A stretch of DNA of 64,000 nt from Caldisericales bacterium (GCA_022707885.1 JAKIZT010000002.1:34458-98457); one strand, 5' to 3'; shown: positions 1,653 through 60,819, numbered from the stretch's first letter. Notes: generated from the sequence alone by a model not told the origin. Numbers and translations: made by a program.

Positions 1653-1824
1653 CTAGACCTCCGAAAAACAATTTTATAGCAAGCCACCGCTCAATGCAAA
1701 TATTCAATGATGTTTCTAGCAGAAATAAAACCAAGTGACAAGCACAAAAATAATCTGTCGGTTTTAATCCGGTTGCCAGGAATCACATTTGAAAACATCA
1801 ATTATAATCTGTACGGGAGTCACA

Positions 1825-3555
1825 ATGAAAAAAAGGGTAATCATAAGAAAATTGGGAGTTGAGCTGGACTTTACACCACCAGAACCGCCAAAAAGACATG
1901 GGTTTGCTGAGAATTTAAAACACCTAAAAAGGGTCTTGCCTTACGCCAGACCATTGCTCAAACATTTTATTTTACTTTCGCTTTTTTCCGTAATTTCAGC
2001 TGCATTTGGGCTGATTCTGCCGTTTGCACCAAAGATAATCCTGGATAACGGGGTGGCAAAGGGTGATCTCGGCCTGATAGTCAATGTTTTGATGTTTACA
2101 TTCTGGGCAAATCTTTTTTCAATGCTTGTCGGATGGTTCAATGGCATCTACTCGGAATACCTTTCAAGCTACATAGCATTCAAGACCCAGGTAGATTTTT
2201 ACAGAAAACTCTCAAAACTTGATGAGGAATACTTCGATTCCCAAAGAAGCGGCGATCTCATAAGCAGATCAAGCGGACTTGCAAATGGAATTAGTTACAT
2301 CTCAAACTCGCTCAACACTGTATTCACACTTGTCGTAAGGATCCTGGCTATCCCAGCGGCAGTTGCAGTAATGGACTGGAGGGTTGCTGCATTCGGGTTC
2401 CCAACACTCATCTTCACTACAACAGCATGGTACTTTATCCAGAGACTGCTCCGGTCATATCAGAAGGTCAGAATGGACGCGTCAGGAAAACTAAGTTCAA
2501 CGCAATACGACCTCGTATCATCACTCTCGGATTTGAGAATGTCTGGCCAGACGCGAAGAGCTATGATGTCTTATATAAGGGAATACGTCTCGGTGTGGCG
2601 CATGGGTGTGGTCTCATCACTGGTCTCTTCAGGATCAGGGCTGGTTCAAAGCCTTGTGCTCGCTGTGGTATCACTCCTGATAAACATCTTTGGGTGGGGG
2701 CAGGTCACATCAGGTGCATGGACACTAGGTAAAGTATCTGCCATTACAATAGCATTTGGATATATAACATCGCCACTCCAAACCATGTTCTCTCTTTGGG
2801 AAGGGCTTGTTGGAACATCAATATCGATACAGCGTTTCTTTGAAGTCTATGATGCCAAGGAACTGCCAAAAACAGGCAAGGAAAAGATTCCGGATGGACC
2901 ATACACAATCGAGTGCAAACAAATTGTTTTCTCTTATGCCGAAAGCAAGGAAATATTGAAAGGGCTGGACATCCAGGCAAAACCTGGCGAGATAGTCGCA
3001 ATAACCGGTGATTCTGGAGCAGGAAAAACAACTCTATTAAAAATTATTGCAGGGCTCCTGAACCCAAAATCGGGGCATGTTGAAATAAACGGCACTGCAC
3101 TGGAGGAGCTGGATGGACAGGCCTGGAGAGGAAAGATAGGGTTTCTCAGCCAGCACCCATACTTTGGTCCCGGCAACCTGGTGGAAAATGTCACTTTCGG
3201 GCGCGAAACAAAAAATGACCCGATGGAAATGATAAAGCTCTGCAGGCTGTCAGGGGTGGCTGAACGGCTTGGTGACGGCCCGCTGGGGGAACGTGCAAGA
3301 AATATATCCGCTGGTGAGAAACAGAGGGTTGCACTGGCAAGAGTCATGCTGATGGACAGGGAGATACTCCTGCTGGATGAACCTCTGGCGCAGGTAGACA
3401 TTCCAACGGCCAAGGAGATATTTGCAGACATATCCCCAATACTGAGGAGAGGAACCACAATCATCATAACACACAACCCAGTGCTGATAAAAATGGCAGA
3501 CAAGGTGTACTTCATCTATGATGGCAAAGCATTTGAGGGAGGGTTAAATGTTTGA
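1825..3555 (+). CDS. ABC transporter, fused permease/ATP-binding exporter (MsbA-like)
   Basis: N-terminal polytopic TM region. Walker A GDSGAGKTT, ABC signature ISAGEKQRVALAR, Walker B ILLLDEP. Stops at TGA (…GGLNV*). Confidence 0.85.
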   Translation: MKKRVIIRKLGVELDFTPPEPPKRHGFAENLKHLKRVLPYARPLLKHFILLSLFSVISAAFGLILPFAPKIILDNGVAKGDLGLIVNVLMFTFWANLFSMLVGWFNGIYSEYLSSYIAFKTQVDFYRKLSKLDEEYFDSQRSGDLISRSSGLANGISYISNSLNTVFTLVVRILAIPAAVAVMDWRVAAFGFPTLIFTTTAWYFIQRLLRSYQKVRMDASGKLSSTQYDLVSSLSDLRMSGQTRRAMMSYIREYVSVWRMGVVSSLVSSGSGLVQSLVLAVVSLLINIFGWGQVTSGAWTLGKVSAITIAFGYITSPLQTMFSLWEGLVGTSISIQRFFEVYDAKELPKTGKEKIPDGPYTIECKQIVFSYAESKEILKGLDIQAKPGEIVAITGDSGAGKTTLLKIIAGLLNPKSGHVEINGTALEELDGQAWRGKIGFLSQHPYFGPGNLVENVTFGRETKNDPMEMIKLCRLSGVAERLGDGPLGERARNISAGEKQRVALARVMLMDREILLLDEPLAQVDIPTAKEIFADISPILRRGTTIIITHNPVLIKMADKVYFIYDGKAFEGGLNV

Positions 3556-12857: not shown

Positions 12858-13484
12858 TTACTTAAATTGATCGATTTTATCTTGTGTAATTAATATAGAA
12901 GATTCAACGATATCTACCTTAGGAGCAATACTGTAATTGTATTCTTTTAAATGTTTTATTAGTCCATCGAGCTCATTATTCAAAGCGCATATCGATTGAT
13001 CTAATCCAAGTAAACCACCATTAGTAATTTTCTTGTTTACATTTCTACTTTCAGGTTCATCCAGTGTGATTAAATAACATTTAGATTTTCTATGCACATA
13101 CTTTAGTGCCACAGCTTCAAGATCAGCTTGTTTGTATCTCTCTCTCAATGTTGTTTTCGCACTAATTGCTATAGGACCTAATTGAAGTGTATATAAGATG
13201 AAATCGTAATTAACATTAGGAACGAACGCAACTCTTGCTTGCATATAAAAAGGAAGCAAATTTTCTCTAATAAACAAAGTAGCAAGACAAAGTTCAAAAA
13301 TTTTGCCATTTATTGCAACATTATCTTTATTATACTTATTTTTATATATATTCCAATATTGAACTATATAATCAGAAGGCTGAGTGTATTCAACTTTCCT
13401 AAAATCACTTACTAAAGTTTCAAAAATGTTTTCAGTTTTTGAATCTTTTTTTTTTACAATACCTATATCAAATAATAGACTCAT
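12858..13484 (-). CDS. hypothetical protein, candidate restriction endonuclease partner of the adjacent methyltransferase
   Basis: Start overlaps the MTase stop. Shares the AT-rich composition of the MTase gene. No motif recognised with confidence. Confidence 0.35.
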   Translation of the reverse strand: MSLLFDIGIVKKKDSKTENIFETLVSDFRKVEYTQPSDYIVQYWNIYKNKYNKDNVAINGKIFELCLATLFIRENLLPFYMQARVAFVPNVNYDFILYTLQLGPIAISAKTTLRERYKQADLEAVALKYVHRKSKCYLITLDEPESRNVNKKITNGGLLGLDQSICALNNELDGLIKHLKEYNYSIAPKVDIVESSILITQDKIDQFK

Positions 13485-14287
13485 TAAATCCTCCGATTTG
13501 TTTTTTTAAATTCAAAAAGATTATTCATTGTACTCTCTTTCAACAATCTTTTAAGCGCAAGTTGACAATAAGAACTGTCTATTTCAATACCAACACATCT
13601 TCTTCGATTATTGTGAGAAGCAATCAGGGTACTACCACTTCCCATGAATGGATCTAAGATTGTATCTCCAACATAACTAAACATTTTTATACATCTTTTT
13701 GGTAATTCTATCGGAAATGGTGCGGGATGTCCAACTTTTTTTTTACTCTCACCATTAAATGTCCAAAGCCCGTTTGTCCATTCCAAAAATTCATCACGCG
13801 TGATATCTGATATTCTAGAACCACTAATTTTTTTCCATCTTTTTTTATAAAAAACAACTATCAATTCTACCGGTGCAATAACATAAGGGGCTGACGCTGA
13901 TAACCATGAGCCCCACGCTGTTCTTCTTGATATATTTCCTTCATTCCATACAATTGTTGAATGATATTGAAAACCAATTTGTTTTGCTAATATAGTTAAA
14001 TCAGCTCCAACGCTTTGTTGGCCCCCTTTGTTTTTATCTAAAGGAATATTTAAACAAAATCTTCCATCATCTTTAAGCCAATCAAAAACTTTTTTCATCC
14101 ATTTTTCTGAAAATTCACAATATTCTCTATATGTTAATTTATCATTATGTTGATTATATTTTATATCAACATTATACGGGGGTGATGTGATAACTAGATC
14201 TATCGAATTTCTTCGAATACGTCTAGTTGATAATAAATCATCACAAATTATTTTTAAATCATCATTTTCAAAGATAACTTTTTTCAT
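13484..14287 (-). CDS. DNA methyltransferase, beta-class (N4-cytosine or N6-adenine)
   Basis: Motif IV VITSPPY near the N-terminus and motif I DPFMGSGST near the C-terminus (beta-class order). SPPY favours N4-cytosine MTases. Markedly AT-rich compared with neighbours. Confidence 0.8.
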   Translation of the reverse strand: MKKVIFENDDLKIICDDLLSTRRIRRNSIDLVITSPPYNVDIKYNQHNDKLTYREYCEFSEKWMKKVFDWLKDDGRFCLNIPLDKNKGGQQSVGADLTILAKQIGFQYHSTIVWNEGNISRRTAWGSWLSASAPYVIAPVELIVVFYKKRWKKISGSRISDITRDEFLEWTNGLWTFNGESKKKVGHPAPFPIELPKRCIKMFSYVGDTILDPFMGSGSTLIASHNNRRRCVGIEIDSSYCQLALKRLLKESTMNNLFEFKKTNRRI

Positions 14288-14323: not shown

Positions 14324-15553
14324 TCATTCCCAGGAGGCCAAATAGTGGACCTGCTCTTCGGTTAGCTTGTCTATTACGATTCCTACCGATTCAAGTTTGA
14401 GCCTGGCAACGTCCAGATCTACTTTTTGCGGAACTGGGACTACATCTTTTGCCAGGCTCTTTCCATTTTCCAGACCATAGAGAAGTGAAAGTGCCTGCAA
14501 TGAGAACGAGAGATCCATTATCTCTGCAGGGTGGCCATCGGCACACACCAGATTGACAAGCCTCCCTTCACCAAGCACGTAGATTTTTTTCCCAGAAGGC
14601 AGTGTATATTCCTGGATATTGTTTCTGGCTTCCCTGTGCGAAACTGCATAACTTCTGAGTTGGACCATCGACACTTCCACATCAAAGTGCCCGGCATTGC
14701 AAAGGATCACCCCATCTTTCAACAGGTCAAAATGTCTTCTGTCGATTATATTTACATCGCCTGTTGCAGTCACAAAGATGTCGCCAATTCTTGCTGCGTC
14801 TTTCATCTCCATAACCTCACAGCCATCAAAATAGGCTTCCATTGCCCTGATCGGGTTTACTTCAGTTGCCACAACCCTGGCACCAAGGCCTTTTGCCCTC
14901 ATTGCTAACCCTCTGCCAACCCATCCATAGCCAGCTATAACAACTGTTTTCCCACACACTGTCAGGTTGGTTGTTCTAACTATTCCATCCCAGGATGACT
15001 GGCCTGTCCCGTATCTGTTGTCAAAAAGATACTTGCTTTGGGCATCATTTACGGCGATTACGGGGCACGGCAATTTGCCTTCACGGGCAAGCGCCCTCAT
15101 TCTGGTCAAACCAGAGGTTGTTTCTTCTGTTGCACAAAGAACTTTTATTGAAGGGTGTTTTCTAACCATTGTCACAACAAGATCAGCACCATCATCAAGC
15201 ACAAGGTCGGGACCAATTGCCAGCGTACTCTCAATGTTTTCCTCATGCTCGGTTTCGCTCTCGCCCCTTCTCGCAAAAACATTCACCCCAAGGGAAGCCA
15301 GGCCGGCAGAAACATCATCTTGTGCAGTAAGGGGATTTGACGAGCAAATGGCCACTTCGGCACCCGATGATTTGAGTACTTTTGCAAGATATGCGGTTTT
15401 GGCCTCAAGATGTATCGACATGGAGATTTTGATTCCATCAAATCTGCCCTTTAGGTATTCCGAGAGATTTGTAAGGACAGGCATTCTTTTTGAAACCCAG
15501 TCTATTTTCAAAAGACCTGCATCTTTTAGTTTTTCATCATAAACTCTGCTCAT
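14324..15553 (-). CDS. ahcY: S-adenosyl-L-homocysteine hydrolase
   Basis: Short-type SAHH with an NAD-binding GYGWVGRGLAMRAKGLGARVVATEVNP segment. AGGAGGAG RBS before the chosen ATG (MSRVYDEK…). Confidence 0.85.
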   Translation of the reverse strand: MSRVYDEKLKDAGLLKIDWVSKRMPVLTNLSEYLKGRFDGIKISMSIHLEAKTAYLAKVLKSSGAEVAICSSNPLTAQDDVSAGLASLGVNVFARRGESETEHEENIESTLAIGPDLVLDDGADLVVTMVRKHPSIKVLCATEETTSGLTRMRALAREGKLPCPVIAVNDAQSKYLFDNRYGTGQSSWDGIVRTTNLTVCGKTVVIAGYGWVGRGLAMRAKGLGARVVATEVNPIRAMEAYFDGCEVMEMKDAARIGDIFVTATGDVNIIDRRHFDLLKDGVILCNAGHFDVEVSMVQLRSYAVSHREARNNIQEYTLPSGKKIYVLGEGRLVNLVCADGHPAEIMDLSFSLQALSLLYGLENGKSLAKDVVPVPQKVDLDVARLKLESVGIVIDKLTEEQVHYLASWE

Positions 15554-15640
15554 TAATTCTCCTCCTTGTACGAACAACAAAATAGCAGATTTCTTTTCCA
15601 TTTAAAAGTTTGTATTGAAAAGGATAAAAGCCCTGCTAGA

Positions 15641-16453
15641 ATGCTTTGCATGGACAGGAAAACGATTGCCCTCATTGTTGCTGGTATTCTTGCCTTTACA
15701 TCGATCGTACTCGACCAGCTTGGCCTCATAGAAGGCCTGAAAAACGGTTTTTTCATATATATCCTAATTTCAATCCTTATTATTGCCATAGGAATCGCAA
15801 GCAAAAATAAGGGTATCCTTATGGCATCAATCGTTTTTGGGGTGGCACTTTCTGTTGGGAAAACTATTTCCATGGGATATATGCCACTTGAAAATTTGAG
15901 TGTTGAATACTTCAGTTTTATTAATATCGTACTGCCAGGAATAATTCTTGGCATAGCCATATGGCAAAAAAAGTGGACTCTTGCATATTGTTTTTCAATG
16001 CTCTTTGCGTCATTCTTTGTTTCATCACTTGTCAAATCAGGCCTTGCTTCTCCAGTATGGTCGTGGGTTTCGCTTGGCCTCTCTTTTGTTGGGGCCCTGT
16101 GGATCATTCTATGGTCATCCAATTTTGAAGTAGTCAATACAAAAAGCAAATATTTGGCAGTGATTGGGCCCGTTTTTGCCGTTTTCCTCGCTACAGCTAT
16201 CCCAATTGAGGGGCCCTTTACAACAACTGCTCTCATCTTGTCAATTCTTACCTCATCCCTGTCATGTTTCTTCCTCGTCCAATCCAAGGGTGGGATTTTG
16301 GCCGTTTCAGCAATGCTACTGGCAATCTCATGGCCAATCATGCCTTCAAACTACTGGTTTGGCTGGCTCCCATTCATATTTGAAGTATCGGCATTCCTTT
16401 GCATCGGGATATATCTTGCCCAGACAAGGCCCCAAAAAGAGCTTATAGAATGA
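15641..16453 (+). CDS. polytopic membrane protein, unknown function
   Basis: Series of coherent TM helices. Divergent from ahcY. Start uncertain (ATG at 15641 or 15650). Confidence 0.5.
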   Translation: MLCMDRKTIALIVAGILAFTSIVLDQLGLIEGLKNGFFIYILISILIIAIGIASKNKGILMASIVFGVALSVGKTISMGYMPLENLSVEYFSFINIVLPGIILGIAIWQKKWTLAYCFSMLFASFFVSSLVKSGLASPVWSWVSLGLSFVGALWIILWSSNFEVVNTKSKYLAVIGPVFAVFLATAIPIEGPFTTTALILSILTSSLSCFFLVQSKGGILAVSAMLLAISWPIMPSNYWFGWLPFIFEVSAFLCIGIYLAQTRPQKELIE

Positions 16454-17158: not shown

Positions 17159-17210
17159 TTATCCAAAGGAACTATAGAAACTTATATTTGTGTATTTGTG
17201 CCAAAAAACA

Positions 17211-17243
17211 AAAAAAGGCCAACTTAAAAGTTGGCCTTTTTTT
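17211..17243. terminator. rho-independent terminator (ggccaactt-aaa-agttggcc plus T-run)
   Basis: Perfect hairpin flanked by A-run and T-run between convergent genes. Confidence 0.55.
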
Positions 17244-17263
17244 GTGGAAATTCTAGATTTGAA

Positions 17264-17797
17264 CTATTCTCTTCCAGTTCCTGGTGAAACAATGTTGATT
17301 GTGACCGGACGCTTGCGATATCTGACATCAAGGTTTGGATTGACTGTGCGTTCTGTCCTGCCTGCTTTGTCGGTTGCTCTTGTCAAAAGCTGGTAGGTTG
17401 AGCCCTGAATTGATGTGTTGAGCTCATAGGACCACTCATTTGTCTTGGTGTTCAGATTTGCCTTGAACCATGTTGAACCGCCATCAAGCGAGATTTCGAT
17501 GTTGTTGACTGGGGCTTGACCCTTGCACTCGCCCATTAGATTGAATGGAAGTCTGATTGTGTCATTCTCAAGAACATTGCTGCACCAGCTCTTTGGCGTC
17601 GGATCCGATGCCAAATCGGTATCAGCTGACCCACCGGTAGTTGCACCTGCGGGTGGTGGTGGAGGCGCACCGCCTCCTCCAGAAGGACATCAGCCATATG
17701 GTCTGAAAGCCGTTGAACCGTTGGTTCCGTAGGTCACCGGCATCATCAAACCACAGGCTAAGGCAAACAGTACTGAAACAACTAGTAGTTTTTTCAT
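17264..17797 (-). CDS. small secreted protein gene interrupted by an in-frame TGA at 17690-17692 (selenoprotein/readthrough candidate or pseudogene)
   Basis: AAAGGAG RBS 7 nt before ATG (17797). Signal peptide MKKLLVVSVLFALACGLMMPVTYGTNGSTAFRPYG, then TGA, then a same-frame continuation CPSGGGGAPPPPPAGATTGGSADTDLASDPTPKSWCSN… for about 140 more codons. The ORF track lists this as 17264..17614. Confidence 0.45.
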
Positions 17798-18011
17798 ATG
17801 TTTGGCTCCTTTCGCCTGAATTTATGTTAGTATTCAATCACAATTCAATCTTAAATGCAATGGTCCATTTTGGCGATATTTACACCAGATTTGTACTAGA
17901 TTCACAAATCACCACGCAAATGCTGTATTTTCTTACAAATAACGATTTTATATTTTCGCTTATTTTTCGGTAATATATCATCATATCATAAAAAAATCCA
18001 AAATTTACCAG

Positions 18012-22737: not shown

Positions 22738-22752
22738 TAAAACACCTCTTTT

Positions 22753-22780
22753 AAAAAAGGGGCGACCAAAAGGTCGCCCC
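22753..22780. terminator. rho-independent terminator downstream of gdhA (ggggcgacc-aaaa-ggtcgcccc)
   Basis: Perfect 9-bp GC-rich stem. On the minus strand it is followed by a T-run. Confidence 0.55.
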
Positions 22781-22804
22781 AGTTTCTACTTTCCACCAGC
22801 TTGA

Positions 22805-24151
22805 TCAGACTATGCCCTGAGCTATCATTGCATCAGCGACTTTTCTGAAACCAGCAATGTTTGCACCAAGAACATAATTATGTCTTTGTCCAAATTCTTC
22901 AGCCGCGTTATAGGCTGAATCATGAATTTCTTTCATTATTCTTTGCAAATGTTTATCAACTTCATCTCTTGTCCATGCCATGTGAAGGGCATTCTGTGTC
23001 ATTTCAAGTCCCGAAACGGCGACTCCACCTGCATTGGCAGCTTTTCCAAGGCCATACAGTATGCCATTGTTAAGGAATATCTTCACTGCACCTGGAGTTG
23101 AAGGCATATTCGCACCCTCAGAAACGGCAACACAGCCACCTTTAACAAGTGCTTCTGCAGATACCTCATCAAGCTCGTTTTGTGTTGCGCAAGGCATGGC
23201 CACATGATAATTGTGGGCTTTCCAGATTCCCTGGGCACCATCGAAGTACTTTGCGTTATATTTCTCTGCGTATTCCTTGATTCTGCCTCTCTTGACGTTT
23301 TTGAGCCACATGATGAAGTGCAGCTTTTCTTTATCGATTCCAGCTTCATCAATTATATAGCCATCAGAATCGGAACAGGTTATAACCCTGCCACCAAACT
23401 CGGTTACTTTTTCAATGGCATACTGTGAAACATTTCCGGAACCTGAAATTGCTACAAGTTTGCCTTTCAAATCCAGGCCCTTGGTGGCAAGCATATTCAT
23501 GAGGAAATATGTCGCACCATAACCTGTGGCCTCTGGACGTATGAGCGAACCTCCAAATGTGATTCCCTTTCCAGTAAATACACCAGAGAATTCGTTCATG
23601 AGTTTCTTGTACTGGCCAAACAGGTAGCCTATTTCCCTGCCCCCAACGCCTATGTCTCCGGCAGGAACATCGGTATTTGGGCCAAGATGACGGAAAAGCT
23701 CATTCATGAAGCTTTGGCAAAATCTCATTACTTCATTATCAGACTTGTTTTTGGGGTCAAAATCCGCCCCGCCTTTTCCTCCACCCATTGGAAGGGTTGT
23801 GAGGGCATTTTTGAGAATCTGTTCGAAACCGAGGAACTTCAGGATTGATATATTTACACTTGGATGGAACCTTATACCACCTTTGTATGGTCCAATTGCA
23901 CTATTGAATTCTACCCTGAACCCCCTGTTTACAATGATGTCCCCTGCATCACTGACCCATGGTACGCGGAACATTACTACCCTCTCGGGTTCAATGATGC
24001 GCTCAACGATACGCAGTTTCCTGTAGACCGGATTGCGCTCTATGAGCGGCTCCAGGCTTTCCACAACCTCGTGGACTGCCTGGTGGAATTCCGGCGAAGC
24101 CGGGTCCCTTTGTTTAACAATAGACATAATCTCGTCAATAAAATTTGACAC
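22805..24151 (-). CDS. gdhA: glutamate dehydrogenase
   Basis: GPYKGGIRFHPSVN and PMGGGKGG signature motifs. 448 aa. Confidence 0.9.
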   Translation of the reverse strand: MSNFIDEIMSIVKQRDPASPEFHQAVHEVVESLEPLIERNPVYRKLRIVERIIEPERVVMFRVPWVSDAGDIIVNRGFRVEFNSAIGPYKGGIRFHPSVNISILKFLGFEQILKNALTTLPMGGGKGGADFDPKNKSDNEVMRFCQSFMNELFRHLGPNTDVPAGDIGVGGREIGYLFGQYKKLMNEFSGVFTGKGITFGGSLIRPEATGYGATYFLMNMLATKGLDLKGKLVAISGSGNVSQYAIEKVTEFGGRVITCSDSDGYIIDEAGIDKEKLHFIMWLKNVKRGRIKEYAEKYNAKYFDGAQGIWKAHNYHVAMPCATQNELDEVSAEALVKGGCVAVSEGANMPSTPGAVKIFLNNGILYGLGKAANAGGVAVSGLEMTQNALHMAWTRDEVDKHLQRIMKEIHDSAYNAAEEFGQRHNYVLGANIAGFRKVADAMIAQGIV

Positions 24152-24224
24152 CCTACACTCTCCTTTTCTTTACGCACAGGCATCTCTTTTGCGCCGCCTG
24201 CAAAGCGCGAGTCAATTAGAAGTC

Positions 24225-50166: not shown

Positions 50167-50371
50167 ACACCTCCTGAATGGTTTTGAGTATGTTCTCTGC
50201 CTCTTCCTTGTTTACTTTTTCTATTGCAAAGCCTGTGTGCAAAAGCACAAACTCACCAACCTCGGCGTCCGGCAAAAGATCAAGTCTCACCTGCCTTTTT
50301 ATTCCTCCAAACTCGACAACGGCATCAAGCCCGTTTTTTTCACATATTTTTGCTGGTACGGCTAAACACAT
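50147..50371 (-). CDS. hypC: hydrogenase maturation protein HypC
   Basis: MCLAVPAKI N-terminal motif. About 75 aa. Confidence 0.75.
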   Translation of the reverse strand: MCLAVPAKICEKNGLDAVVEFGGIKRQVRLDLLPDAEVGEFVLLHTGFAIEKVNKEEAENILKTIQEVFGDVPV

Positions 50372-52560
50372 CACACACCTCCAACCCTTGAAAGGGCAAC
50401 AACAGCCTGGCCAAAACTGACGCAACCGTCGCCAGGCGGCAAACTGATGTTTGTATACACCTCAAAACCTTCGCTTGAAAGGGCGTCAAAAACAAGCTCC
50501 AGCAAGACAAAGTTCAGAAAACAGCCCCCACTGAGACAAACTTTTTTAAGGCCGGTCTTTTGTCTGGCAAGTAAACACCCTTTTACGATGGCTTCACTTA
50601 TTCCCTTGTGAAATCCCCCAGATATTGAGGGTGGATCATCAATCCCCTGTTTCAGGGCAACAGCCCAGTCAACCTCGAAATGGTCCCCAAAATCCCTTAC
50701 AGGAAAATCAAAAGGTCTTGCGCCTGGATCATAAGCCGACTCAAGCGCCACAGCCAGTTCTGCCTCGTATGTGGCCTTCTGTCCCAATCCCGCAAGAACC
50801 GCAAAACCGTCAAACAGTCTGCCAAGGCTCGAGGTAATTGGGGTATTTACGCCCCTGTCAATCATTACACCCCAAAGTTCCCTTTCTTGAGGATCAATGT
50901 CCAGATCAATTTTGGACTCCGTTTGCCTGGCGAGGGAAAAAAGTATCTTTCTGCAATCTTTTATCGCAACCTCGCCGCCAGGCAACGGGAAAGTTCTCAG
51001 GTGGCCAATCCTCTGGAATTCTGATCTTGCAGCAACAAGAAACTCGAACCCCCATATTGTCCCATCCGTTCCAAAACCGGTCCCGTCGGCTGCAACACCT
51101 ATAACCCTGCCATCAAGCCCGTGCTCGCCCATCACCGACGCAATATGGGCATGATGGTGAAATACAGGAATGAATTTGTCAGAGCTGGAGAGCTTCTCGC
51201 GGTGAACCGTTGTCGTGTAGGAAGGGTGAGCATCGTGGGCACAATACTCCTCCTTGAAACCAAATAACTCTCTGAAAAGGCAAAGACTCTCGCTAAACCT
51301 TGCAAATGTTGCCGCGTTGCCCATCTCGCCGATATGGTGTGATATCATCGCTTTCCCATCATAGGCAAAGGTAAAGGTATTCTTCATCTGGCCACCAAGA
51401 GCAAGTATGCTTGGCCCCTTTGGAACTGGAAGTGTCTCCGGAACAAATCCCCTTGCTCTTCTGAAAAGCTGCTGCCTGCCCTTGAAGCATCTTGTAACCG
51501 AATCATCAATGGGAACCACAATTTCACGGTCATTGTCCAAAATCTTCGTGACCATGAGATTTTTTTTGCCATCGGCAATTATCGGCTCTTCATGGAGGTT
51601 TGCCGAGGTGAGGACAACCGGTGGAAGACCATCAAGCAGAAGAACATGCAGCGGTGTGTAAGGCAAAAAAATGCCAATCTTGTTGGTACCTGGCGCAACC
51701 GATGGGGCAAGACTGTAGTTATCTGATTTTTTGCAAAGCACAACGGGCTTTCTCCAGGAAGAGAGCGACTGTTCCTCGCATGGGCCAATTTCTGCCTGTC
51801 CTCTCGCCTGGGCAATGTCAAAACACATGACGGCCATTGGCTCTTTGCCCCTGTTCTTGAGCTTCCTTAAGGCGTTGACCGAGGTTTCATTGGTGGCAAT
51901 GCAGGCAAGATGAAAACCACCAGTTCCCTTGATAGCGACAATCTCCCCGGCAAGAAGACTCCTTCTTGCTTCCAGGATTGCCTCATGCCCCTTCAGCTCT
52001 CCCATAAAAACAATCGGGCCACAATCAGGGCATGCGATGGTCTGGGCGTGATAGCGCCTGTCTAGTGGGTTTGCATATTCGCTCCTGCACCTGTCGCAAA
52101 GGTCAAAATCGCCCTGCGAAATAGTGTGCCTGTCATAGGGTAAACTTCTTATTATCGAAAGCCTCGGCCCACAATTCGTGCAAGATATGAAAGGATGAAG
52201 ATGTCTTGGATCTTTCGGGTCCAGAAGTTCACTTCGGCAATCATCACAAATGCCTATATCAGGTGGCACAAGCACTGACGACGGTGCTCCCTTGGGTGTT
52301 TCGAGGATCTTAAGGTCTTTGTAATCCCCTTCAAAATCGGTAATTTCAACTGACTCAATGATTGCCTGGGGTGGCGGAGAAGTTTTTATCACTTCAATTG
52401 CGTTCTGGATGGCAGATGGTTCACCGCAAAAAACAGCCTCTACGCCATTGCCAATGTTTCTGACGAAACCCTTGAGACCGAAAGAATCAGCCACTCTCCA
52501 GACAAACGGCCTGAAACCAACACCCTGGACTGTCCCCCTGAAAACAATTCTCTTTGCCAT
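50371..52560 (-). CDS. hypF: carbamoyltransferase HypF
   Basis: N-terminal acylphosphatase (GTVQGVGFRPFV), two CxxC zinc-finger pairs, YrdC and Kae1-like domains. 729 aa. Confidence 0.85.
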   Translation of the reverse strand: MAKRIVFRGTVQGVGFRPFVWRVADSFGLKGFVRNIGNGVEAVFCGEPSAIQNAIEVIKTSPPPQAIIESVEITDFEGDYKDLKILETPKGAPSSVLVPPDIGICDDCRSELLDPKDPRHLHPFISCTNCGPRLSIIRSLPYDRHTISQGDFDLCDRCRSEYANPLDRRYHAQTIACPDCGPIVFMGELKGHEAILEARRSLLAGEIVAIKGTGGFHLACIATNETSVNALRKLKNRGKEPMAVMCFDIAQARGQAEIGPCEEQSLSSWRKPVVLCKKSDNYSLAPSVAPGTNKIGIFLPYTPLHVLLLDGLPPVVLTSANLHEEPIIADGKKNLMVTKILDNDREIVVPIDDSVTRCFKGRQQLFRRARGFVPETLPVPKGPSILALGGQMKNTFTFAYDGKAMISHHIGEMGNAATFARFSESLCLFRELFGFKEEYCAHDAHPSYTTTVHREKLSSSDKFIPVFHHHAHIASVMGEHGLDGRVIGVAADGTGFGTDGTIWGFEFLVAARSEFQRIGHLRTFPLPGGEVAIKDCRKILFSLARQTESKIDLDIDPQERELWGVMIDRGVNTPITSSLGRLFDGFAVLAGLGQKATYEAELAVALESAYDPGARPFDFPVRDFGDHFEVDWAVALKQGIDDPPSISGGFHKGISEAIVKGCLLARQKTGLKKVCLSGGCFLNFVLLELVFDALSSEGFEVYTNISLPPGDGCVSFGQAVVALSRVGGV

Positions 52561-60219: not shown

Positions 60220-60819
60220 TCAGTACCCGTAGCGCTCCTCTTTCCATGGGTCGCCGTGTTCATGATAGCCATAGGATTCCCAGAAACCCAGTTTGTTTCG
60301 CGGAATAAACTCCAGGCCGGTGACCCATTTGGCCGATTTCCAGAAATACAGCCTCGGAACAACCAGGCGAACAGGAAAGCCGTGTTCCAGCGAGATTGGC
60401 TCACCATTAAACTTCAGCGCAAAAACCACATCATCCTGAAAAAAATCATGGAGTGGAATGTTTGTTGTAAAATCATTATGGCCATGGATCATGACAAATT
60501 TGGCCTCTGGCCTTATTTTCACAAGGTCGCGTATCACCAGAGCAGATATACCCTCAAAAACATTGTCCAGTCTTGACCAGCCTGTAACGCAATGGATGTC
60601 GCACCTGACCTCGGTCATTGGCAGTCCGGAAAACTCCTCGTAAGAAAATGATTTTTCCTCCTCCACCAGCCCAAAAATCGAGAATCTCCATTTTTCAATA
60701 TCAACTACCGGTGTCTGGCCATAATGCAAAACCGGAAACGAAGTAGTCTCGCTTTGCCCTGGGGGAATTCTTTTGTCTCTCTTTGTGTCCGGGCTTACAA
60801 CCACCTTTTTTTGCTCCAT
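60220..60819 (-). CDS. molybdopterin-dependent oxidoreductase, sulfite-oxidase/YedY(MsrP)-like catalytic subunit
   Basis: …VRCDIHCVTGWSRLDNVFEG… and …GFPVRLVVPRLYFWKSAKWV… resemble the Moco-binding core. Confidence 0.65.
   Translation of the reverse strand: MEQKKVVVSPDTKRDKRIPPGQSETTSFPVLHYGQTPVVDIEKWRFSIFGLVEEEKSFSYEEFSGLPMTEVRCDIHCVTGWSRLDNVFEGISALVIRDLVKIRPEAKFVMIHGHNDFTTNIPLHDFFQDDVVFALKFNGEPISLEHGFPVRLVVPRLYFWKSAKWVTGLEFIPRNKLGFWESYGYHEHGDPWKEERYGY

What the first reader, a model, noticed from the sequence alone, without database searches (positions are those of the whole stretch)
17264..17797. Secreted-protein gene with an in-frame TGA followed by a GC-rich hairpin: selenocysteine/readthrough candidate or fresh pseudogene
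A canonical start (AAAGGAG RBS plus ATG at 17797) and signal peptide (MKKLLVVSVLFALACGLMMPVTYG…) run into TGA at 17690-17692. The same frame continues uninterrupted for about 140 codons (CPSGGGGAPPPPPAGATTGG…WCSN…GECKGQ…) to a proper stop at 17264. Thirteen nucleotides downstream of the UGA the mRNA forms a perfect 7-bp hairpin GGAGGCG-GUG-CGCCUCC (forward coordinates 17661-17677), a spacing comparable to bacterial SECIS elements. TGA is an ordinary stop elsewhere (ABC transporter ends …GGLNV-TGA), so global reassignment is unlikely.
Basis: seen in the sequence. Interest (0 to 1): 0.6.

Follow-up and report, generated by a model that had tools for sequence, protein, structure and literature searches.

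The report
Candidate secreted selenoprotein in Caldisericota
A small secreted-protein gene of uncultured Caldisericota bacteria carries an in-frame UGA "stop" that is kept, with an RNA hairpin just after it, in all eleven lineages found, so it is almost certainly read through, most likely as selenocysteine, and public databases list it only as fragments.

Summary
The minus-strand gene 17797-17264 has RBS + ATG, a signal peptide, TGA at 17692-17690, 141 further in-frame codons and a 7-bp hairpin at 17677-17661. It is not a sequencing error or a fresh pseudogene. The TGA is present in every assembly checked and in 11 diverged lineages (down to about 40 % identity), all Caldisericota. Both halves are under purifying selection in one frame (pN/pS 0.24, 0.11, 0.06). 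No orthologue has a sense codon; the two database entries with Trp there are table-4 gene-calling artefacts. TGA is the commonest ordinary stop in the window (21/51), so the code is not reassigned. Three lineages have no restart codon before the conserved downstream motif, so the UGA must be decoded. Every lineage has a stem-loop compatible with the published bacterial SECIS consensus (12/12 haplotypes; one only with its lower stem), built from different sequences. Its folding energy is no evidence, because Gly-run/Pro-run codons pair inevitably. The best reading is a new, phylum-restricted selenoprotein family: Sec near the N-terminus, a Gly/Pro tether, then an Ig-like domain. Two weaknesses remain. 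No Cys homologues exist, and selA/B/C/D could not be checked; one paper places Sec utilisation outside the Caldiserica core.

The parts
17806..17812 (-). Ribosome-binding site AAAGGAG, 8 nt upstream of the start codon
   Evidence: GAAAGGAG/GAAAGGAA is conserved 6-8 nt before the signal-peptide ATG in 10 of 11 lineages.
17795..17797 (-). ATG start codon of the full-length gene
17726..17797 (-). Signal peptide (residues 1-24, MKKLLVVSVLFALACGLMMPVTYG). Cleavage after ..TYG is inferred from the -3/-1 rule, not predicted with a tool.
   Evidence: All 11 lineages keep M-[KR]-K, a hydrophobic core and a small-residue end although the sequence diverges. pN/pS is 0.24 upstream of the TGA.
17693..17707 (-). 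Conserved pre-UGA motif FRPYG (subfamily A: [FW]RPYG)
17690..17692 (-). In-frame TGA: the recoded codon, proposed to encode selenocysteine (residue 36)
   Evidence: Present in 27/27 assemblies and all 11 lineages. No sense-codon orthologue was found.
17687..17689 (-). Cys codon directly after the UGA (U-C pair). In subfamily B the Cys lies 6 residues downstream (U-GGGGG-C).
   Evidence: TGT->TGC is synonymous between lineages.
17657..17681 (-). SECIS-like stem-loop UGG.GGAGGCG-GUG-CGCCUCC.CCA: 7-bp upper stem at 17677-17661, loop GUG at 17670-17668, 19 nt between the UGA and the loop
   Evidence: -15.5 kcal/mol; passes the consensus quoted. The core is invariant between lineages 1 and 2. Analogous hairpins with different sequences occur in all other lineages.
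17606..17689 (-). Gly/Pro/Ala-rich flexible linker (residues 37-64), predicted disordered; it also encodes the hairpin
   Evidence: pLDDT < 50 for model residues 1-39. pN/pS 0.11.
17267..17605 (-). Ig-like beta-sandwich domain starting at the conserved DPTPKSW motif (residues 65-177)
   Evidence: Pfam Big_13, E 6e-5, below cut-off. HMMER hits to repeats of giant surface proteins. AF2 model is all-beta. Weak Foldseek hits to Ig-like domains. pN/pS 0.06.
17264..17266 (-). TAG stop codon of the full-length gene
17208..17245 (-). Intrinsic terminator (GGCCAAC-TTTTAA-GTTGGCC + T-run)
   Evidence: Both arms change together between haplotypes (GGCCAAC/GTTGGCC, GACCAGC/GCTGGTC, GGCCAGC/GCTGGCC).

Best explanation
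Window 17797-17264 (minus strand) is one intact gene for a 177-residue secreted protein whose codon 36, UGA, is decoded rather than terminating. The most likely mechanism is canonical bacterial selenocysteine insertion. Translation starts at ATG 17797. When UGA 17692-17690 reaches the A site, the stem-loop 12 nt downstream (17681-17657, apical loop GUG) is bound by SelB.GTP.Sec-tRNA(Sec) at the mRNA entrance. Sec is inserted and translation continues to TAG 17264. The precursor is exported and its signal peptide removed. The mature protein of about 150 residues carries a Sec-Cys pair near its N-terminus, on a disordered Gly/Pro tether attached to one Ig-like domain. In subfamily B, Sec may be the first mature residue. 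SHOWN: the gene structure; conservation of the UGA in 11 lineages; purifying selection across the UGA in one frame; no alternative start codon in 3 lineages; a consensus-compatible hairpin in every lineage; ordinary use of TGA as a stop elsewhere. INFERRED: that the inserted residue is Sec, that SelB reads this hairpin, the cleavage site, and any function. The function I favour, with low confidence, is a reactive selenol/thiol on a flexible arm at the cell surface, serving redox chemistry or metal(loid)/chalcogen binding.
For: (1) The TGA is in 27/27 independent assemblies from NCBI, ENA, JGI and Logan and in all 11 lineages. These span about 40-96 % identity. (2) NG86 pN/pS between lineages 1 and 2 in this frame is 0.24 upstream, 0.11 in the linker and 0.06 in the domain. 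The other frames give >=0.5, mostly >1, or have no synonymous changes, and flanking non-coding DNA differs by 24 %. Right after the TGA the changes are TGT->TGC, CCT->CCC, CCA->CCT (all synonymous) and a whole-codon deletion. (3) L034, L038 and L042 have no in-frame ATG/GTG/TTG between the TGA and the conserved DPTP.SW motif. The only RBS + start is upstream of the signal peptide. (4) TGA ends 21/51 long genes in the window, so decoding must be site-specific. (5) All 12 haplotypes have a stem-loop compatible with the published bSECIS consensus: loop 3-9 nt, G in the first two loop positions, 16-37 nt from the UGA, <= -7.5 kcal/mol (criteria; 'loop G ~20 nt downstream, 6-8 bp stem'). Ten pass in their 57-nt MFE fold; L047 shares L034's hairpin and also passes; L038 passes only with its lower stem. 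Spacing is 16-19 nt in 11 haplotypes and 27 nt in one. The loops are GUG, GUU, GGC, CGUGU and GGAGGA, on at least five different stems. In L052 an 8-codon insertion displaces the ancestral hairpin and a new one made of Ser/Ala codons occupies the usual position. Only 1-4 % of codon-order permutations give this. The background pass rate for TGA triplets in the window is 4.2 %, and 0.9 % at spacing <= 20 nt. (6) In subfamily B, wobble-position differences inside the stem are all pair-preserving (GGC/GGU opposite G; GCC/GCU opposite G), while all flanking Gly and Pro codons of L038 differ from L030.
Against: (1) Sec machinery is not demonstrated. No selA/B/D or tRNA-Sec is in the ~400 kb of (largely redundant) Caldisericota DNA held, which covers only a small part of a genome. 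Nobu et al. 2022 list Sec-utilisation functions as absent from the Caldiserica core. Caldisericum is not among the Sec users tabulated by Peng et al. 2016. (2) No Cys-containing homologue exists, whereas 'almost all selenoproteins' have them. (3) The hairpin's stability carries no information: z = 0.34 against shuffles, and native codons fold slightly worse than random synonymous recodings, because GGN runs pair with CCN runs. 13 % of TGAs in GC-rich contexts pass the same consensus. (4) There are no Rfam SECIS hits. (5) Sec would sit in a disordered segment rather than in a recognisable redox fold, and the Sec-Cys spacing is not conserved (U-C versus U-G5-C).
Confidence: 0.63

Rival explanations
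1. SelB-independent programmed readthrough. The UGA is decoded at some frequency by a near-cognate or dedicated suppressor tRNA (inserting Trp, Cys, Arg or Gly), stimulated by the downstream hairpin. This would give low or conditional expression of the secreted protein in a lineage without Sec machinery.
For: The recoding evidence does not say which residue is inserted. Sec utilisation is reported outside the Caldiserica core. No Cys homologues exist, which is atypical for selenoproteins.
Against: No sense codon has replaced the UGA in 11 lineages, although a single A->G change would give Trp. That argues the stop codon itself, or Sec, is required. TGA is the most used stop in the genome, so a general suppressor is unlikely. 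From general knowledge, conserved hairpin-stimulated readthrough is not an established bacterial mechanism, whereas the hairpin geometry here matches SelB-type elements.
Confidence: 0.2
2. The UGA is a true stop. A 35-residue leader peptide is made, and the downstream part is expressed separately by reinitiation at an internal start, or serves only as a regulatory or untranslated region.
For: Gene callers annotate it that way, giving products of 35, 90, 116 and 134 aa. Several lineages have an in-frame TTG or ATG about 25 codons after the TGA.
Against: L034, L038 and L042 have no in-frame start before the conserved DPTP.SW motif. The linker right after the TGA is under purifying selection in the same frame (4 synonymous: 1 non-synonymous), and its peptide GGGGGCVAAPPPP is conserved. 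A reinitiated product would lack the signal peptide. A bare signal peptide has no plausible function.
Confidence: 0.07
3. Fresh pseudogene (nonsense mutation) or a sequencing/assembly error at this base.
For: A single interrupting stop in an otherwise intact ORF is what a recent nonsense mutation looks like; from one sequence it cannot be excluded.
Against: The same TGA is in 27/27 assemblies from independent samples and sequencing centres and in 11 lineages with saturated synonymous divergence. pN/pS is 0.06-0.24 on both sides. No intact orthologue exists anywhere.
Confidence: 0.01
4. Alternative genetic code (table 4 or 25: UGA = Trp or Gly) in this organism, as suggested by database entries that show Trp at the position.
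For: P0006 and P0288 are deposited as full-length proteins with W at the site.
Against: Their DNA has TGA, and the look-up flags 'translates_to_query: no' under table 11. Both occur only on contigs under 1.4 kb, consistent with a gene caller switching to table 4 (my inference). In the window TGA terminates 21/51 long genes and no other long gene contains one.
Confidence: 0.01
5. Ribosomal hopping (bypassing) over the UGA from a take-off Gly codon to a matching landing codon.
For: In some subfamily-B genes the UGA is flanked by identical Gly codons (GGT TGA GGT in L038 and L060), and a hairpin follows.
Against: It is not general. Subfamily A has GGC/GGT TGA TGY with no matching landing codon nearby, and L030 has GCT TGA GGC.
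Confidence: 0.02

Closest known systems
Bacterial selenoprotein genes with an in-ORF SECIS (archetype E. coli fdhF; bSECIS consensus model of Zhang & Gladyshev as summarised in PMC13188914)
   Same: A conserved in-frame UGA. A small-loop stem-loop directly downstream with G in the first two loop positions (mostly first, followed by U or G). UGA-to-loop distance of 16-27 nt, and a stem of 4-7 contiguous pairs plus extensions. Ordinary TGA stops elsewhere in the genome.
   Different: There are no Cys-containing homologues at all. Sec lies in a disordered N-terminal segment of a secreted Ig-like protein, not in a thioredoxin-like or other redox fold. The hairpin is spelled by Gly/Ala/Pro (or Ser/Ala) linker codons. 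The host phylum has no documented Sec use, and the machinery was not shown here.
Candidate or 'hypothetical' selenoprotein families found by conserved TGA (for example OS_HP1-3 and the bSECISearch candidates without Cys homologues; PMC1976440)
   Same: Small proteins of unknown function, defined only by a TGA conserved among homologues plus a SECIS-like hairpin.
   Different: Those come from selenoprotein-rich Deltaproteobacteria with proven machinery. This family is confined to Caldisericota, has a signal peptide, and was missed because standard pipelines require Sec/Cys pairs.
Bacterial Ig-like (Big_13/BIg/PKD-type) repeat domains of giant surface adhesins
   Same: The C-terminal domain is homologous to these repeats: phmmer E down to 6e-105 summed over up to 34 repeats; Pfam Big_13 E 6e-5; Foldseek hits to SiiE BIg and PKD domains.
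   Different: This is a single domain in a 177-residue protein, preceded by a recoded UGA and a Gly/Pro tether. The Pfam score is below the gathering threshold.
SoxY-type carrier proteins (Ig-like fold with a reactive Cys in a Gly-rich swinging arm, GGCGG). Recalled from memory; a lead, not a test.
   Same: The concept is similar: an Ig-like body with a reactive chalcogen residue in a glycine-rich flexible arm (U-GGGGG-C / U-C-P-S-GGGG). The best structural matches are the Ig-like domains of sulfite dehydrogenases and SoxC, though weakly (Pfam Mo-co_dimer E 0.005).
   Different: The arm is N-terminal, not C-terminal. No sequence homology to SoxY was detected, there are no sox genes nearby, and TM-scores are only 0.3-0.4 on a model with pLDDT 60.

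Membership tests
Bacterial selenoprotein gene (Sec-UGA + bSECIS) | In-frame UGA conserved among orthologues, with coding conservation on both sides | tested here: met
   11/11 lineages. pN/pS 0.24 / 0.11 / 0.06 in one frame.
Bacterial selenoprotein gene (Sec-UGA + bSECIS) | Stem-loop after the UGA meeting the bSECIS consensus: loop 3-9 nt, upper stem 4-16 bp, G in the first two loop positions, 16-37 nt spacing, MFE <= -7.5 kcal/mol | tested here: met
   Criteria. All 12 haplotypes have a compatible stem-loop: ten pass in the 57-nt MFE fold, L047 shares L034's hairpin and passes, and L038 passes only with its lower stem. Caveat: energy is not better than shuffles or synonymous recodings. 13 % of GC-rich TGA contexts also pass.
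Bacterial selenoprotein gene (Sec-UGA + bSECIS) | Cys-containing homologues with Cys aligned to the Sec position | tested here: not met
   None found in the 1.84-billion-representative HMMER search, two word-indexed searches of 5.8 billion clusters, cluster listings, or the genome, metagenome and viral scans. The two 'W' entries are TGA in the DNA. This feature is usual but not obligatory for the class.
Bacterial selenoprotein gene (Sec-UGA + bSECIS) | selA, selB, selD and tRNA-Sec (selC) present in the same genome | not testable with these tools
Held DNA (window plus loci, ~400 kb, redundant) has none. The SelA database search lists only enterobacteria. Literature: not in the Caldiserica core; Caldisericum is not listed among Sec users.
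Bacterial selenoprotein gene (Sec-UGA + bSECIS) | Selenium actually incorporated (75Se labelling or mass spectrometry) | not testable with these tools
   Requires an experiment.
Pseudogene / sequencing error | Stop absent from orthologues or other assemblies; relaxed selection downstream | tested here: not met
Stop-codon reassignment (genetic code 4 or 25) | TGA frequent inside conserved genes and not used as a terminator | tested here: not met
   TGA terminates 21/51 long ORFs; there are no internal TGAs in other long genes.
Pfam Big_13 (PF19077) bacterial Ig-like domain | Score at or above the Pfam gathering threshold (27 bits) | tested here: inconclusive
   23.8 bits, E 6.4e-5, residues 96-152. 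Homology to Ig-like repeats is supported, and the all-beta model.
Sec-type secreted protein / lipoprotein | N-terminal signal peptide (n-, h- and c-regions); for lipoproteins, a lipobox Cys | tested here: inconclusive
   n/h/c organisation is visible and conserved in 11 lineages. No signal-peptide predictor was available. LFALAC15 in the window loosely fits a lipobox pattern but is absent from most other lineages.

The most novel reading that the evidence does not exclude
The Caldisericota that carry this family truly lack selA/selB/selC/selD, as the 'not in the Caldiserica core' report hints. The strictly conserved UGA plus hairpin would then be decoded by a SelB-independent, site-specific recoding mechanism: a hairpin-dependent readthrough or a dedicated non-canonical tRNA or factor. 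No such mechanism is known in bacteria. The complete absence of Cys or any sense-codon homologues would then reflect a requirement for the recoding event itself.
Probability: 0.15. Interest if true: 0.9.

Novelty: new member of a known kind. Interest (0 to 1): 0.62.

Why it matters
If confirmed, this adds a selenoprotein family with several unusual properties. It is secreted, with Sec at or near the mature N-terminus on a disordered Gly/Pro tether rather than in a redox fold. It has no Cys counterparts, and its SECIS is spelled by linker codons. It would also extend Sec decoding to Caldisericota, a deep-branching phylum that is abundant in anaerobic digesters; the gene is indexed in several hundred blocks of public assemblies. 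It exposes a systematic annotation failure: every public record calls the gene as a 35-, 53-, 86-, 90-, 91-, 104-, 116-, 119-, 134-, 137- or 140-residue fragment, or as a Trp-containing protein through a spurious table-4 call. It also shows a blind spot in selenoprotein pipelines that require Sec/Cys pairs. One copy sits in a phage lysis-module context, which hints that the gene is mobile. If the machinery proves absent, the locus becomes a clean, comparative-genomics-defined test case for a new bacterial recoding mechanism.

Tried and rejected
- Rfam, gathering threshold on the whole window and E<=10 on 17200-17900: no SECIS or tRNA-Sec; only terminator-like noise at 17205-17300.
- Hairpin energy against dinucleotide shuffles and against synonymous recodings: not significant, so dropped as evidence.
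- My first strict contiguous-stem SECIS scorer missed bulged or extended stems and was replaced.
- Sec machinery:
  - tblastn of E. coli SelA/SelB/SelD and ARAGORN on all held Caldisericota DNA: nothing.
  - SelA search of the large protein database: only enterobacteria in the 120 rows listed.
  - Contig walks beyond both window ends: no sel genes.
  - Literature: nothing decisive.
- Suspected NiFeSe-type TGA at 22751-24169: an ordinary glutamate dehydrogenase stop.
- Scan of all held DNA for other TGA-spanning ORFs with a SECIS-like hairpin: only this family.
- IMG/VR scan for phage copies: none.
- Alternative frames, including the 53-aa 'MADVLL..' ORF overlapping the TGA: substitutions that are synonymous in the main frame are non-synonymous there, and pN/pS is >1 downstream of the TGA.
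- Hopping: not general.
- One look-up failed because the TTG-start ORF 1789-3555 is not on record as such.
- One paper, Liu et al. 1998 on the minimal SECIS, is not held.

Full report
OBSERVATION. On the minus strand of the window a strong RBS (AAAGGAG, 17812-17806) precedes ATG 17797. The ORF encodes MKKLLVVSVLFALACGLMMPVTYGTNGSTAFRPYG and then meets TGA at 17692-17690. The same frame stays open for 141 more codons (CPSGGGGAPPPPPAG...VSPGTGRE) to TAG 17266-17264. An intrinsic terminator follows at 17245-17208. The hairpin GGAGGCG-GTG-CGCCTCC lies at 17677-17661, 12 nt after the TGA, and extends to 10 bp with one A.A mismatch. TGA is an ordinary terminator in this genome: 21 of 51 long ORFs end in it and no other long ORF contains one. 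Glutamate dehydrogenase, for example, ends ...AQGIV-TGA. Codes 4 and 25 are excluded.

ORGANISM AND ANNOTATION STATE. The only close relatives in 5.8 billion protein clusters are 'hypothetical proteins' of Caldisericia/Caldisericales MAGs, mostly from anaerobic-digester metagenomes. They are annotated as fragments of 90, 116, 134 or 140 residues. One member, P0006, is full length with Trp at the TGA position. The DNA of all eight contigs carrying it nevertheless reads GGC TGA TGT. These contigs are under 1.4 kb, so I infer that the gene caller used translation table 4. A second such entry (P0288) is the same artefact.

NOT AN ERROR, NOT A PSEUDOGENE. The TGA is present in 27 of 27 independent assemblies from NCBI, ENA, JGI and Logan, which give 13 haplotypes in two lineages. 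Lineage 2 (for example GCA_012517765.1) differs from the window by 24 % in the upstream non-coding DNA. The other two frames give values from about 0.5 to >10, or have no synonymous changes at all. Directly after the TGA the differences are TGT->TGC, CCT->CCC and CCA->CCT, all synonymous, plus loss of one whole GGA codon.

DEEP CONSERVATION. An exhaustive HMMER search of 1.84 billion representatives showed that the C-terminal part is a widespread Ig-like repeat of giant surface proteins. It also turned up a few small diverged orthologues, all called from internal Met or Leu codons. I fetched their DNA and ran pattern/tblastn scans of GTDB genomes and JGI metagenomes. Together these gave 11 lineages, all Caldisericota, and every one has signal peptide - TGA - Gly/Pro linker - domain.
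- Subfamily A: [FW]RPYG-TGA-C[PG].G..APPPPP. Members are the window, L018, L034, L047, L052 and L059. L034 and L052 are shown to be syntenic with the window, next to a divergently transcribed metalloenzyme-superfamily gene.
- Subfamily B: G.F[AG]-TGA-G[GS]GGGCV[AS]APPPP. Members are L030, L053, L060, L042 and L038, in other genomic contexts.
Ten of the 11 lineages have GAAAGGAG/GAAAGGAA 6-8 nt before the signal-peptide ATG. No orthologue with Cys or any other sense codon was found by any search.

THE UGA MUST BE DECODED. In L034, L038 and L042 there is no in-frame ATG, GTG or TTG between the TGA and the conserved DPTP[KSR]SW..NV motif that opens the domain. The conserved protein therefore cannot be made by reinitiation, and such a product would lack the export signal anyway. 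Because TGA terminates about 40 % of genes, decoding has to be site-specific.

THE HAIRPIN. Stability alone is uninformative. The native segment folds no better than dinucleotide shuffles (z = 0.34). With the peptide held fixed, native codons fold slightly worse than random synonymous choices (z about +1 in five of six lineages). A GGN run followed by a CCN run pairs whatever the codons. What is informative is form and position. The published bacterial SECIS consensus requires a 3-9-nt apical loop on a 4-16-bp upper stem, G in the first two loop positions (usually followed by G or U), 16-37 nt between the UGA and the loop, and MFE <= -7.5 kcal/mol (PMC13188914). PMC4605307 adds that stems are generally 6-8 bp, with the conserved loop G about 20 nt after the UGA. 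All 12 haplotypes have a compatible stem-loop; L038 qualifies only when its lower stem is included, and L047 shares L034's hairpin. Spacing is 16-19 nt in 11 haplotypes and 27 nt in L059. The hairpins are:
- window and L018: GGAGGCG-GUG-CGCCUCC
- L034 and L047: GGAGCGGC-GGC-GCCG(C)CUCC
- subfamily B: GG[CU]UGC-GUU-GCAGC[CU]
- L060: GGCUG-CGUGU-CAGCC
- L059: GGGAGC-GGC-GCUCCC
- L052: GCAGC-GGAGGA-GCUGC
L052 is a natural experiment. An 8-codon insertion moves the ancestral GGCG-GUG-CGCC hairpin to +36 nt, and a new hairpin built from Ser and Ala codons sits at the usual place. In subfamily B the wobble-position differences inside the stem are all pair-preserving, while every flanking Gly and Pro codon of L038 differs from L030. 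Permuting codon order within the linker gives a passing hairpin at 16-20 nt in only 1-4 % of trials per lineage. Of all TGA triplets in the window, 4.2 % pass (0.9 % at <= 20 nt); 13 % pass in GC-rich contexts. Rfam has no matching family.

THE PROTEIN. AlphaFold (shallow alignment, mean pLDDT 60) gives a disordered N-terminal stretch of about 39 residues after the Sec position, followed by an all-beta sandwich. Foldseek finds only weak matches (TM 0.3-0.4). They are to the Ig-like dimerisation domain of sulfite oxidases/dehydrogenases (SorT, SorA) and the sulfane dehydrogenase SoxCD, and to adhesin BIg and PKD domains. This agrees with sub-threshold Pfam hits to Big_13 and Mo-co_dimer. By the -3/-1 rule (inference), the signal peptide of subfamily A ends at ..[FY]G about 10 residues before Sec. 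In subfamily B the equivalent ..TF[GA] lies directly before it, so Sec could be the first residue of the mature protein. A Cys follows Sec immediately in A and after five Gly (GSGGG in L060) in B. Function is unknown. My low-confidence proposal is a reactive selenol/thiol on a flexible arm at the cell surface. ArsR- and MerR-type regulators lie near two subfamily-B copies, and one copy lies directly after a phage M23-endolysin/holin cassette.

WHAT REMAINS OPEN. The decisive test is whether selA, selB, selC and selD are present in these genomes, and I could not run it. The held DNA (the 64-kb window, about 15 kb beyond its ends, and the orthologue loci) has none, but that is a small fraction of a genome. 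A SelA search of the protein database lists only enterobacteria in its top rows. In the literature, Sec-utilisation functions were reported as unique to Ca. Lithacetigenota or shared only with Coprothermobacterota when compared with the Caldiserica core (PMC9751293). Caldisericum appears neither in the complete list of Sec users nor in the held part of the genome table of Peng et al. 2016. This is not proof of absence in the digester lineages. NiFe-hydrogenase maturation is described in the same way, yet this window encodes HypF. The TGA family itself was found in only six species-representative MAGs in the GTDB genome scan. [quoted passage not shown] It also explains why Sec/Cys-based pipelines would have missed the family.

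VERDICT.
- That the UGA is a conserved, functional, decoded codon: about 0.9.
- That it encodes selenocysteine through a SelB-type mechanism: about 0.63.
- SelB-independent readthrough: about 0.2.
- True stop with separate products: about 0.07.
- Pseudogene, sequencing error, code change or hopping: a few per cent together.
I class it as a new member of a known kind, namely a new and unusual selenoprotein family in a phylum with no documented Sec use. There is a non-negligible chance (about 0.15) that it is something mechanistically new.

Noticed in passing
L001-L008 (P0006) and L059 (P0288): Public protein collections hold full-length versions of this protein with Trp at the UGA position. The underlying DNA has TGA. 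Both occur only on contigs under 1.4 kb, which suggests that metagenomic gene callers switched to translation table 4. All long-contig and NCBI annotations instead give truncated fragments.
   Followed up: yes
L038 2340-3261 (also L039-L041, L054, L055): A subfamily-B copy of the TGA gene lies directly downstream of a phage lysis cassette: an M23 peptidase/endolysin and a holin (PHROG E 1e-17 to 1e-18), with a minor-head/tail-needle-like protein upstream. This looks like a moron-type position in a (pro)phage. No relative was found in IMG/VR.
   Followed up: partly
L030/L048 (4163-4519) and L042 (1-18, 1556-2329): ArsR-family (HTH_5) and MerR-family regulators lie within 1-2 kb of two subfamily-B copies. 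In L048 two paralogous 126-131-aa proteins with weak SpoIIAA-like/VipB hits lie in between. This may hint at a metal(loid)-related role; it was not tested.
   Followed up: partly
window 17208-17245 and the homologous positions in L001-L027: The gene's terminator stem changes on both arms together between haplotypes (GGCCAAC/GTTGGCC, GACCAGC/GCTGGTC, GGCCAGC/GCTGGCC). This is textbook compensatory variation.
   Followed up: partly
L042 (about 2870-3162): In this single Logan contig the orthologue has the conserved TGA but also a frameshift inside the Ig-like domain. It could be an assembly error or a genuinely decaying copy.
   Followed up: no
L047 (contig start) and L049 (contig end), both from MAG JAGNLA01: The gene is split across two contig ends of the same MAG, with overlapping and nearly identical sequence (one residue differs). 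This is an assembly break inside the gene, possibly from strain variation.
   Followed up: no
window 15553-16341 (-) versus 15566-16453 (+): Two long ORFs overlap almost completely on opposite strands. Gene callers disagree between assemblies about which strand is coding (262 aa versus 267-270 aa). The plus-strand product looks like a multi-pass membrane protein.
   Followed up: no
window 12858-14287 (-): An N6/N4 DNA methyltransferase (PF01555, E 2e-48) is translationally coupled (ATGA overlap at 13484) to a 208-aa protein with a weak BsaWI-type restriction-endonuclease hit. This is a probable type II R-M pair next to the adenosylhomocysteinase gene. Some related assemblies have a different gene at that position.
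   Followed up: no
window 50371-52560 (-) and 60220-60819 (-): HypF, a NiFe-hydrogenase maturation protein, and a stand-alone 199-aa Oxidored_molyb domain protein are encoded in the window. HypF matters because NiFe-hydrogenase maturation, like Sec utilisation, was reported as outside the Caldiserica core.
   Followed up: partly
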